Under the pieces are notes generated by a model. The model saw only the letters and a list, made by a program, of their open reading frames with translations, searched no databases and was not told where the DNA came from. A stretch of 64,000 nucleotides of DNA from Octopus vulgaris (taxonomy: Eukaryota): NCBI GenBank assembly GCA_951406725.2, contig OX597819.1, positions 62,558,001 through 62,622,000 on the forward strand, given 5' to 3'. The stretch's first letter is position 1, and each line of letters starts with the position of its first letter. Positions 49,921-50,182 of this stretch are shown here, piece after piece. A program made the position numbers and the translations under genes.

Positions 49921-50182
49921 TTGCAGCGTGGAAGGTGTTTAGAAGCCAATGAAAAATACACAAAAACCGTTAAATTCACTTCAACATTTAAATTTAATTT
50001 CTCAAAATATTTTCGTCACGGACAAAATTCCGTGCTGCATTTTGTTCACTGAATTTTGTCAGTGAACAGGTCACGGTCTCAAAGCGACGAAAATATTTTG
50101 ACAAATTAAATTTAAATGTTGAAGTGGATCTAACGGTTTCTGTGTGTTTTTAAATAACTTGTAAACACCTTCCACGCTACAA
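49921..50182. repeat. ~95-bp inverted repeat containing an HHR-like fold
   Basis: Arms 49921-50017 and 50086-50182 (gcgtggaaggtgttta..ttcaacatttaaatttaattt..aaaatattttcgtc and its reverse complement). Confidence 0.85.
50055..50105 (+). ncRNA. Type I hammerhead-like variant (G3:C8)
   Basis: TTTGTCA GTGAACA G GTCAC-ggtctcaaa-GCGAC GAAA A-TA-TT T TGACAAA; perfect 7-bp stem I and palindromic AATATT stem III. Confidence 0.55.

What the first reader, a model, noticed from the sequence alone, without database searches (positions are those of the whole stretch)
50055..50105. Second core-swap hammerhead: G3:C8 inversion inside an inverted repeat
Seen: a perfect 7-bp stem I encloses GUGAACA + one extra purine, stem II GUCAC/GCGAC, GAAA and palindromic AAUAUU. 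This is the reciprocal swap of the C3:G8 pair. The extra purine after the core is shared with other HHR folds in this window. With the C3:G8 (28913, 35719) and U3:A8 (28443) forms, three Watson-Crick versions of this pair occur within 22 kb in different repeat families. Weakness: the cleavage triplet would be UUU and stem II has a mismatch.
Basis: partly seen in the sequence, partly recalled or inferred. Interest (0 to 1): 0.7.

Follow-up and report, generated by a model that had tools for sequence, protein, structure and literature searches.

The report
Swapped-core hammerhead in high-copy animal repeat
A very abundant short repeat shared by several related animal species carries a hammerhead-shaped RNA motif in which two paired core letters have traded places (C-G to G-C), likely a self-cutting RNA of a Penelope-type jumping gene that standard search patterns would miss.

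Summary
The 51-base motif is present as described and is rare in shuffles: 22 of 2931 shuffled windows give any G3:C8 fold. It is not a one-off. Contigs of four public runs show that it belongs to a repeat family of roughly 10^4 copies (rough) in four related organisms. With that letter, stems I and II become the predicted fold. U17 is common in published Penelope minimal hammerheads (24 of 56 rows), and UUU occurs in one. The 'inverted repeat' is two head-to-head copies of one ~200-bp unit. Other loci show variable truncation of the inverted copy, as in Penelope-like insertions and unlike a MITE. This copy is probably dead: stem II is decayed and a copy-specific hairpin hides the core. Cleavage, expression and a link to a reverse transcriptase are not shown. 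The swap is known from laboratory rescue mutants; I found no natural case in print, but one key paper was unavailable. Verdict: new variant of a known kind.

The parts
50055..50105 (+). Type I minimal-hammerhead fold with G3:C8 core (stem I 50055-61/50099-105; core 50062-68; extra G 50069; stem II 50070-74/50084-88; GAAA 50089-92; palindromic stem III 50092-97; U17 50098; predicted cut between 50098 and 50099)
   Evidence: null model
50073..50073 (+). Copy-specific A where the family reads G (CpG-type decay); the family letter closes stem II
   Evidence: table 3: shares 0.927, 0.907, 0.929, 0.906 in runs X2, X4, X7, X10 (computed)
50047..50190 (+). Right copy of the repeat unit; holds the whole fold and lacks about 60 nt of the 3' end seen in the left copy
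   Evidence: depth bins and pieces 15, 22, 23
49855..50040 (-). Left, inverted copy of the same unit, reaching the family 3' end at about 49855. It has a 22-nt deletion (equivalent to 50066-50087) that removes the end of the core and nearly all of stem II, plus two changes that break stem I
   Evidence: alignment; arm differences; depth rise and loose ends at 49855-57
50028..50040 (-). 5' leader of the unit as kept in the left copy; agrees with the loose-end consensus before 50047-50054 in all four runs
   Evidence: table 7
50043..50068 (+). Perfect 10-bp hairpin (50043-52/50059-68) at the head-to-head junction; predicted to sequester the core and half of stem I in this copy
   Evidence: I22; rival hairpin probability 0.92-0.98 when the RNA starts at or before 50047

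Best explanation
The motif is a decayed copy of a hammerhead-shaped RNA with a swapped G3:C8 core pair, carried near the 5' end of a ~200-bp high-copy repeat that is likely a non-autonomous Penelope-type retroelement, and the intact family RNA would likely cut itself slowly, as a dimer, after U17. Shown: the fold, the high-copy family, the repaired stem II in the family majority, and head-to-head pairs with variable truncation at many loci. Inferred: (1) the master element folded stems I and II; (2) two RNAs pair through the AAUAUU palindrome to supply stem III, as proposed for Penelope minimal hammerheads; (3) G3:C8 stands in for C3:G8 and keeps the 2'-OH of position 8 in place, as in laboratory double mutants; (4) the RNA was copied by a Penelope reverse transcriptase/GIY-YIG protein in trans, leaving an inverted, 5'-truncated copy beside a direct copy. 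A double transversion that keeps the pair while the rest of the core and both stems stay intact is best explained by selection on the active structure in the master lineage. This genomic copy, which predates the split of at least three of the organisms, is probably inactive.
For: Fold is rare in shuffles: 22 of 2931 for G3:C8 and 3 of 2931 for the stricter Watson-Crick class. All 3 scaffolds in the window with stem I of 5 bp or more and G10.1:C11.1 carry an NUGANNA core, against 0.02 expected. All 5 folds of the looser scan have a pairing 3:8 combination; two of them are twins of one family. Family: 6,202-13,907 contigs laid per run; summed depth at 50055-81 is about 22,000-44,000 times the unique flank (the tool warns this is no copy number). 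With the leader of the left copy, stem I is 0.83-0.91 and stem II 0.99. Run X10 lists no G>C and no C>G place, and X7 no C>G place, at 4% or more (table 1). Architecture: 9 of the 15 joints shown link left-arm positions 49923-50006 to right-copy starts at 50047-50076 (table 5), which matches the inverted 5'-truncated copy described for Penelope-like elements (PMC8557442). The canonical C3:G8 family at 35557-35835 has the same head-to-head layout. Literature: the extra base after A9, G10.1:C11.1 and the palindrome are hallmarks of minimal hammerheads (PMC4209133); U17 is in 24 of 56 rows and UUU in the Crassostrea row of its Fig. S3 (my hand count). The G:C swap was the only rescue in this motif in a pairwise mutant scan (PMC9901934), and C3G/G8C partly restores a Penelope hammerhead (PMC11167929). 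A G3-C8 variant did worse with C17 than with G17 (PMC3884650, 'data not shown'), so a non-C base at 17 fits.
Against: No cleavage data. No reverse transcriptase is linked to the unit: none at this locus, and translations of the unit found no such protein (weak evidence). In its context this copy does not fold as a hammerhead (stem I probability 0.00-0.03 when the RNA starts at or before 50047). The left copy has lost the core. The 6-nt all-A/U stem III duplex is very weak (-0.2 kcal/mol, against -1.7 for the control family). The extra base is G, which is in only 1 of 56 published rows (consensus H). Agreement among copies reflects descent from one master and is not independent covariation; I had no copy-by-copy alignment. 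49 of 89 difference rows were hidden, so minority A3 or U8 forms are not excluded, and in X2 and X4 a minority C3:G8 form is not excluded. One distant copy seen only as a translation (P0004) appears to have a decayed core. Cleavage was dispensable for insertion of a Penelope element in vitro (PMC11167929), so family success does not prove activity.
Confidence: 0.62

Rival explanations
1. It descends from a Penelope-type hammerhead, but the master was already catalytically dead or negligible; the family spread without cleavage and the G3:C8 pair is a frozen relic.
For: Hammerhead mutants did not affect insertion by the anole Penelope protein in vitro (PMC11167929). Published minimal hammerheads cleave poorly (PMC4209133). 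Stem III is weak. The swap only partly rescues activity (PMC8495972).
Against: Two transversions that keep the pair, with nine other core bases and both stems intact in the family majority, are unlikely without selection at some stage.
Confidence: 0.18
2. The unit is not a short non-autonomous element but the 3' terminal repeat (pLTR) of an autonomous Penelope-like element; full-length copies are rare and most insertions stop just upstream of the ribozyme.
For: Most published minimal hammerheads are single motifs from truncated elements (PMC4209133). Hammerheads lie near the 3' ends of such elements (PMC8557442).
Against: Loose ends before 50047-50054 agree for only about 10-17 letters and then look unrelated (agreement 0.44-0.51, table 7), which suggests a fixed 5' start rather than random truncation of a long element. 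No long protein begins with either of the two translated frames tried.
Confidence: 0.13
3. Chance look-alike inside a MITE or foldback DNA transposon; GAAA and the palindrome are merely part of the terminal inverted repeat and the core is one arm of a local hairpin. This was my first reading (75%).
For: The whole 262 bp folds as one long hairpin (z = -16.4). The core is one arm of a perfect 10-bp hairpin. The 51-mer as it stands folds no better than its shuffles (61 of 200 as good). No Rfam hammerhead match.
Against: The family letter repairs exactly the flagged mismatch. Arm lengths vary from locus to locus and the two arms are unequal here. I saw no target-site duplication by eye. Rfam also misses the canonical neighbour at 35719. 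The strict fold appears in 3 of 2931 shuffles.
Confidence: 0.07

Closest known systems
Minimal type I hammerheads (min-HHR) of metazoan Penelope-like elements (Cervera and de la Pena 2014, PMC4209133; parts 1-2 of 4 of the text and parts 1-2 of 3 of supplement 2 read)
   Same: Stem I 7 bp, stem II 5 bp with G10.1:C11.1, one extra base after A9, palindromic stem III needing a dimer, U17, U-rich 5' and AU-rich 3' flanks, large dispersed family, second copy nearby on the opposite strand.
   Different: Core is G3:C8. The 56 published rows have C3 in 53, U3 in 3 and G3 in none (their descriptors asked for C3:G8 or U3:A8). The extra base is G (1 of 56 rows). No linked RT shown.
Natural U3:A8 core covariants (Perreault et al. 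2011, PMC3088659, section on core variation read; also PMC4209133)
   Same: Compensated change of the same tertiary 3:8 Watson-Crick pair.
   Different: U3:A8 is reached by two transitions through a U3:G8 wobble. G3:C8 needs two transversions, and its single-step intermediates are inactive in the laboratory.
Laboratory C3G/G8C rescue mutants (PMC9901934, PMC11167929, PMC8495972, PMC3884650; passages read)
   Same: Identical core change, shown to restore part of the activity.
   Different: Engineered; here the change is natural and fixed in a high-copy genomic family.
Non-LTR retrozymes of animals (PMC7229834 passages; bioRxiv 10.64898/2026.07.22.740005 part 1 of 5 and passages)
   Same: Short non-coding unit of 200-300 nt with a type I hammerhead, proposed to derive from Penelope terminal repeats and to be moved in trans.
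   Different: Retrozymes are head-to-tail arrays, mostly with canonical hammerheads. This locus is a head-to-head pair with a minimal, swapped core; arrays and circular RNA were not testable.

Membership tests
Hammerhead ribozyme, canonical consensus | Literal core C3 U4 G5 A6 N7 G8 A9 | tested here: not met
   G at 3 and C at 8; therefore filed as a variant, not as a canonical member
Hammerhead ribozyme, canonical consensus | Watson-Crick pair between positions 3 and 8 | tested here: met
   G50062:C50067; no majority change listed in four runs, C3 plus G8 at 4% or more excluded in X7 and X10
Hammerhead ribozyme, canonical consensus | U4 G5 A6, A9, G12 A13 A14, A15.1:U16.1 and H17 | tested here: met
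Hammerhead ribozyme, canonical consensus | Stems I and II form | tested here: inconclusive
   Predicted for the family letter (0.83-0.97 and 0.99) but not for this copy in its context (0.00-0.03); prediction only
Hammerhead ribozyme, canonical consensus | Match to an Rfam hammerhead model | tested here: inconclusive
   No match, but none either for the C3:G8 control at 35719 or in 28420-28980
Hammerhead ribozyme, canonical consensus | Self-cleavage 3' of position 17 | not testable with these tools
   needs a bench assay
Penelope min-HHR | One extra base between 9 and 10.1 | tested here: met
   G50069; published consensus is H, G in 1 of 56 rows
Penelope min-HHR | G10.1:C11.1 pair | tested here: met
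   G50070:C50088
Penelope min-HHR | Palindromic 15.x-16.x segment for dimer formation | tested here: met
   50092-97; duplex only -0.2 kcal/mol; a 6-nt all-A/U palindrome also stands in the Drosophila rows
Penelope min-HHR | Belongs to a multi-copy consensus family | tested here: met
   6,202-13,907 contigs laid per run in 4 of 4 runs
Penelope-like element | RT plus GIY-YIG frame attached to the terminal repeat | tested here: not met
   None at this locus; protein searches with two frames gave no RT; other loci could not be read, so an autonomous partner is open
Penelope-like element | Inverted, variably 5'-truncated copy next to the 5' end | tested here: met
   This locus and 9 of 15 joints shown, 187 hidden
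Penelope-like element | [quoted passage not shown] | tested here: inconclusive
   The left copy is about 60-66 nt longer at its 3' end than the right, longer than the described tail
Non-LTR retrozyme | Head-to-tail arrays with a hammerhead in each unit | tested here: not met
   No tandem array of the unit in 49300-51000; other loci not readable
Non-LTR retrozyme | Circular RNA of unit length | not testable with these tools
   only contigs were served
MITE / foldback DNA transposon | Fixed terminal inverted repeats with a target-site duplication | tested here: not met
   Arm lengths vary among loci (table 5), arms unequal here, no duplication seen by eye

The most novel reading that the evidence does not exclude
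An active, natural G3:C8 hammerhead was fixed in a retroelement master that made tens of thousands of copies in an animal lineage. It is the first such family, is invisible to all CUGANGA/UUGANAA searches, and Penelope-like groups reported to lack hammerheads (such as Naiads) may in part carry swapped-core ribozymes. The compensated double transversion would then be direct evolutionary evidence that these weak dimeric ribozymes are selected for catalysis.
Probability: 0.35. Interest if true: 0.75.

Novelty: new variant of a known kind. Interest (0 to 1): 0.58.

Why it matters
Whether the weak minimal hammerheads of Penelope-like elements do anything is open: they cleave poorly, and cleavage was dispensable for insertion in vitro (PMC4209133, PMC11167929). 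A natural G3:C8 swap in a successful family supplies the structural covariation that biochemistry predicted. It implies selection on the active fold and gives a simple four-construct test. It also means that genome surveys keyed to CUGANGA miss whole families, here one of the order of 10^4 copies per genome.

Tried and rejected
No whole genome is held, so no copy-by-copy alignment, covariance model or upstream RT search was possible. No further copy of the unit lies in the window. Exact-pattern scans: the core pattern gave 0 hits in metagenome and viral contigs; a 19-base word from the 3' part gave 2 metagenome loci and 1 genome locus, all three chance matches of 19-20 bases. Rfam: no hammerhead among the 150 rows shown of 253 for the window, nor in three focused scans; uninformative because the control is missed too. 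No RNA holder listed. No excess of copies starting at the predicted cut (50099) among the 24 loose-end rows shown (1197 hidden), and table 6 was empty; contigs cannot show RNA ends, so this decides nothing. Protein searches with two frames of the unit: nothing; 4 hits, of which 2 (P0003, P0004) are translations of distant copies and 2 (P0002, P0005) look like unrelated tandem-repeat matches; none has an RT. An extended stem I made by the 5' leader was predicted but is not better than shuffled leaders (200 of 1000 as good), so I dropped it. The leader used was one base too long; one search corrects it with the same result. The bare pattern core...GAAA without stems is not enriched (7 found, 4.6 expected). 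No tRNA gene in the window, so no sign of a tRNA-derived SINE head. Four short words of the unit were not found in the one supplementary file of PMC8557442 held as text (a metadata file), nor three words in the paper library. Searches for a natural G3:C8 case in print: searches found only laboratory mutants. Lunse et al. 2017 (Penelope hammerhead variants) and Arkhipova et al. 2017 (Terminons) are not held, one supplement of PMC4209133 was not searchable, and the figure supplements of PMC3088659 were not read; any of these could hold a natural G3:C8 case.

Full report
Setting. The window is microsatellite-rich animal DNA (23-41% G+C) with many dispersed repeats and a Penelope-like element at about 23250-26400 (RT PF00078 and GIY-YIG PF01541). 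The repeat families look to me like those of octopus genomes; that is recalled and comes from no call. No whole genome is held.

Observation. The motif is at 50055-50105 exactly as written. It has a 7-bp stem I, G3 U4 G5 A6 A7 C8 A9, an extra G, stem II with G10.1:C11.1 and one A x C mismatch, GAAA, a 6-nt palindrome and U17. The 51-mer alone folds no better than shuffles (z -0.48). It straddles the inner end of a 262-bp inverted repeat (arms 97 nt, 89%), and its core is one arm of a perfect 10-bp hairpin. My first reading was therefore a look-alike inside a MITE.

Chance. A descriptor scan over all 16 combinations at positions 3 and 8 returned 4 folds, all with a pairing combination; a looser one returned 5, again all pairing. 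Of 39 scaffolds found without regard to the core, 4 carry NUGANNA, against 0.20 expected. Of the 3 with stem I of 5 bp or more and G10.1:C11.1, all 3 do. In 2931 shuffled windows a relaxed G3:C8 fold appeared in 22, a G3:C8 or A3:U8 fold in 93, any N3/N8 fold in 428, and a Watson-Crick fold with stem I of 6 bp or more and G10.1:C11.1 in 3. The descriptors were written after seeing the motif.

Family. Twenty of 24 listed runs, under five coded organism labels, hold the stretch or part of it, six of them only as a small share that I did not lay. I laid four (X2, X4, X7, X10; organisms A, B, C, E) at 80% likeness. Between 6,202 and 13,907 contigs per run fall on 49855-50190, most often 90-95% alike. 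Summed depth over the core bin is about 22,000-44,000 times that of the unique flank. The tool warns that this is no copy number, so I take it only as 'order of 10^4'. The one difference row shown inside the motif is 50073: 91-93% of depth reads G in all four runs, which turns the mismatch into a G:C pair. The window copy has a CpG-type change. Forty difference rows were shown and 49 hidden. The tally of change kinds has no G>C and no C>G place in X10 and no C>G place in X7, so a canonical C3:G8 form is below 4% there. X2 and X4 each have one G>C and two C>G places whose positions were not shown. Minority A3 or U8 forms are not excluded in any run. Contigs of organisms B and E run from the unique right flank into the element (records 24 and 8; 6 other letters in 352 and 22 in 315), so this insertion is older than those splits.

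Anatomy. The two arms are copies of one unit in head-to-head order. The left copy (minus strand, 50040 to 49855) keeps the 5' leader and the 3' end but lacks 22 nt covering A7 through stem II. The right copy (50047-50190) keeps the fold and lacks about 60 nt of 3' end. Loose ends before 50047-50054 in all four runs agree with the left copy's leader for 10-17 letters and then look unrelated, which suggests a fixed 5' start just upstream of stem I. Nine of the 15 joints shown (187 hidden) join left-arm positions from 49923 to 50006 to starts at 50047-50076: other loci have the same head-to-head layout with an inverted copy of variable length. That is the insertion pattern described for Penelope-like elements (PMC8557442, passages) and not that of a MITE. 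The canonical C3:G8 family at 35557-35835 shows the same layout.

Folding. With the family letter the 51-mer goes from -8.4 to -13.8 kcal/mol, stem II pairing from 0.36 to 0.99, and z to -2.54 (15 of 1000 shuffles as good). With the left copy's leader, stem I stays at 0.83-0.91 for four lengths. With this copy's own junction, the rival hairpin wins (0.92-0.98) and stem I falls to 0.00-0.03. The base at 50050 that perfects this hairpin differs from the left copy and from the loose-end consensus, so it is probably copy-specific. This copy is thus predicted to be inactive, while the family master is predicted to fold. The stem III duplex is weak (-0.2 kcal/mol against -1.7 for the control).

Mechanism. 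I commit to a short non-autonomous Penelope-type element whose RNA carries a minimal type I hammerhead that cuts slowly after U17 when two copies pair through the palindrome, with G3:C8 replacing C3:G8. The fold, family and layout are shown; dimer formation, cleavage and mobilisation by a Penelope protein are inferred. Laboratory data support the swap. It was the only rescue within this motif in a full pairwise scan (PMC9901934, passages). It partly restores an anole Penelope hammerhead (PMC11167929, passages). G8C alone costs about 10^5-fold (PMC8495972, passage). The same anole work found cleavage dispensable for insertion in vitro, which keeps the 'relic' rival alive. No RT link was found: none at the locus, and searches with two translated frames returned only distant non-coding copies or unrelated repeats.

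Comparison. It matches the published minimal-hammerhead consensus in the extra base, G10.1:C11.1, palindrome and flanks (PMC4209133, text parts 1-2). Natural U3:A8 is known (PMC3088659, section read). Six searches found G3:C8 only as a laboratory mutant; passages of PMC6155905, PMC7229834, PMC6765202 and PMC7151607 showed none either. Lunse et al. 2017 and Arkhipova et al. 2017 are not held and may bear on novelty. Earlier AI notes of this scan report G3:C8 motifs in phages and behind two Penelope-type RT genes; I did not check them, and they lower the claim to uniqueness without supporting function.

Verdict. Real feature; new variant of a known kind. It fails the literal core consensus, so I do not file it as a canonical hammerhead, but it most likely works like a Penelope minimal hammerhead. 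Interest 0.58.

Noticed in passing
window 23250-28530 (+): Penelope-like element with RT (24062-25906) and GIY-YIG (25786-26391) in different frames and a Cys-rich linker that I recall as Neptune-type. The U3:A8 fold at 28443-28483 lies about 2 kb downstream and about 45 nt before a (TA)n run, so it may be this element's 3' hammerhead.
   Followed up: partly
window 35557-35835 and 43893-43961: Head-to-head pair of another minimal-hammerhead family: C3:G8 at 35719 (+) and U3:G8 at 35628-35673 (-); a third fragment at 43893 starts just before GAAA.
   Followed up: partly
window 28913-28951 (-) and 46898-47029: Canonical-looking type I fold (6-bp stem I, U.U at 10.1/11.1, 4-bp stem III, GUA) about 80 nt from a (TA)n run; a 95%-identical 3' fragment without the fold lies at 46898-47029.
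   Followed up: partly
   Followed up: no
table 5c, run X4, joint 50110 to 50054: A joint with depth 3227, far above single-copy level; its kind was not shown. If it 'goes back', it would be a head-to-tail 60-nt unit holding the whole fold, which would supply dimers in cis.
   Followed up: no
window 50016-50034 and 50047-50064: Both copies have independently perfected the same leader hairpin by different single changes, a pattern expected of template-switch correction of a quasi-palindrome; in the family the leader could act as a weak switch over G3 U4 G5.
   Followed up: partly
window 52773-53070 / 53288-53584 and 56179-56533: Two more inverted pairs (96% over 298 nt around a common dispersed repeat; arms around an A/T-rich centre); no hammerhead fold returned there.
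   Followed up: no
window 524-1078 (-): Exon-like open frame with a signal-peptide-like stretch and a Cys-rich end; no Pfam match.
   Followed up: no
window 15631-17615: Recent tandem duplication, about 836-bp period, 99% identical.
   Followed up: no
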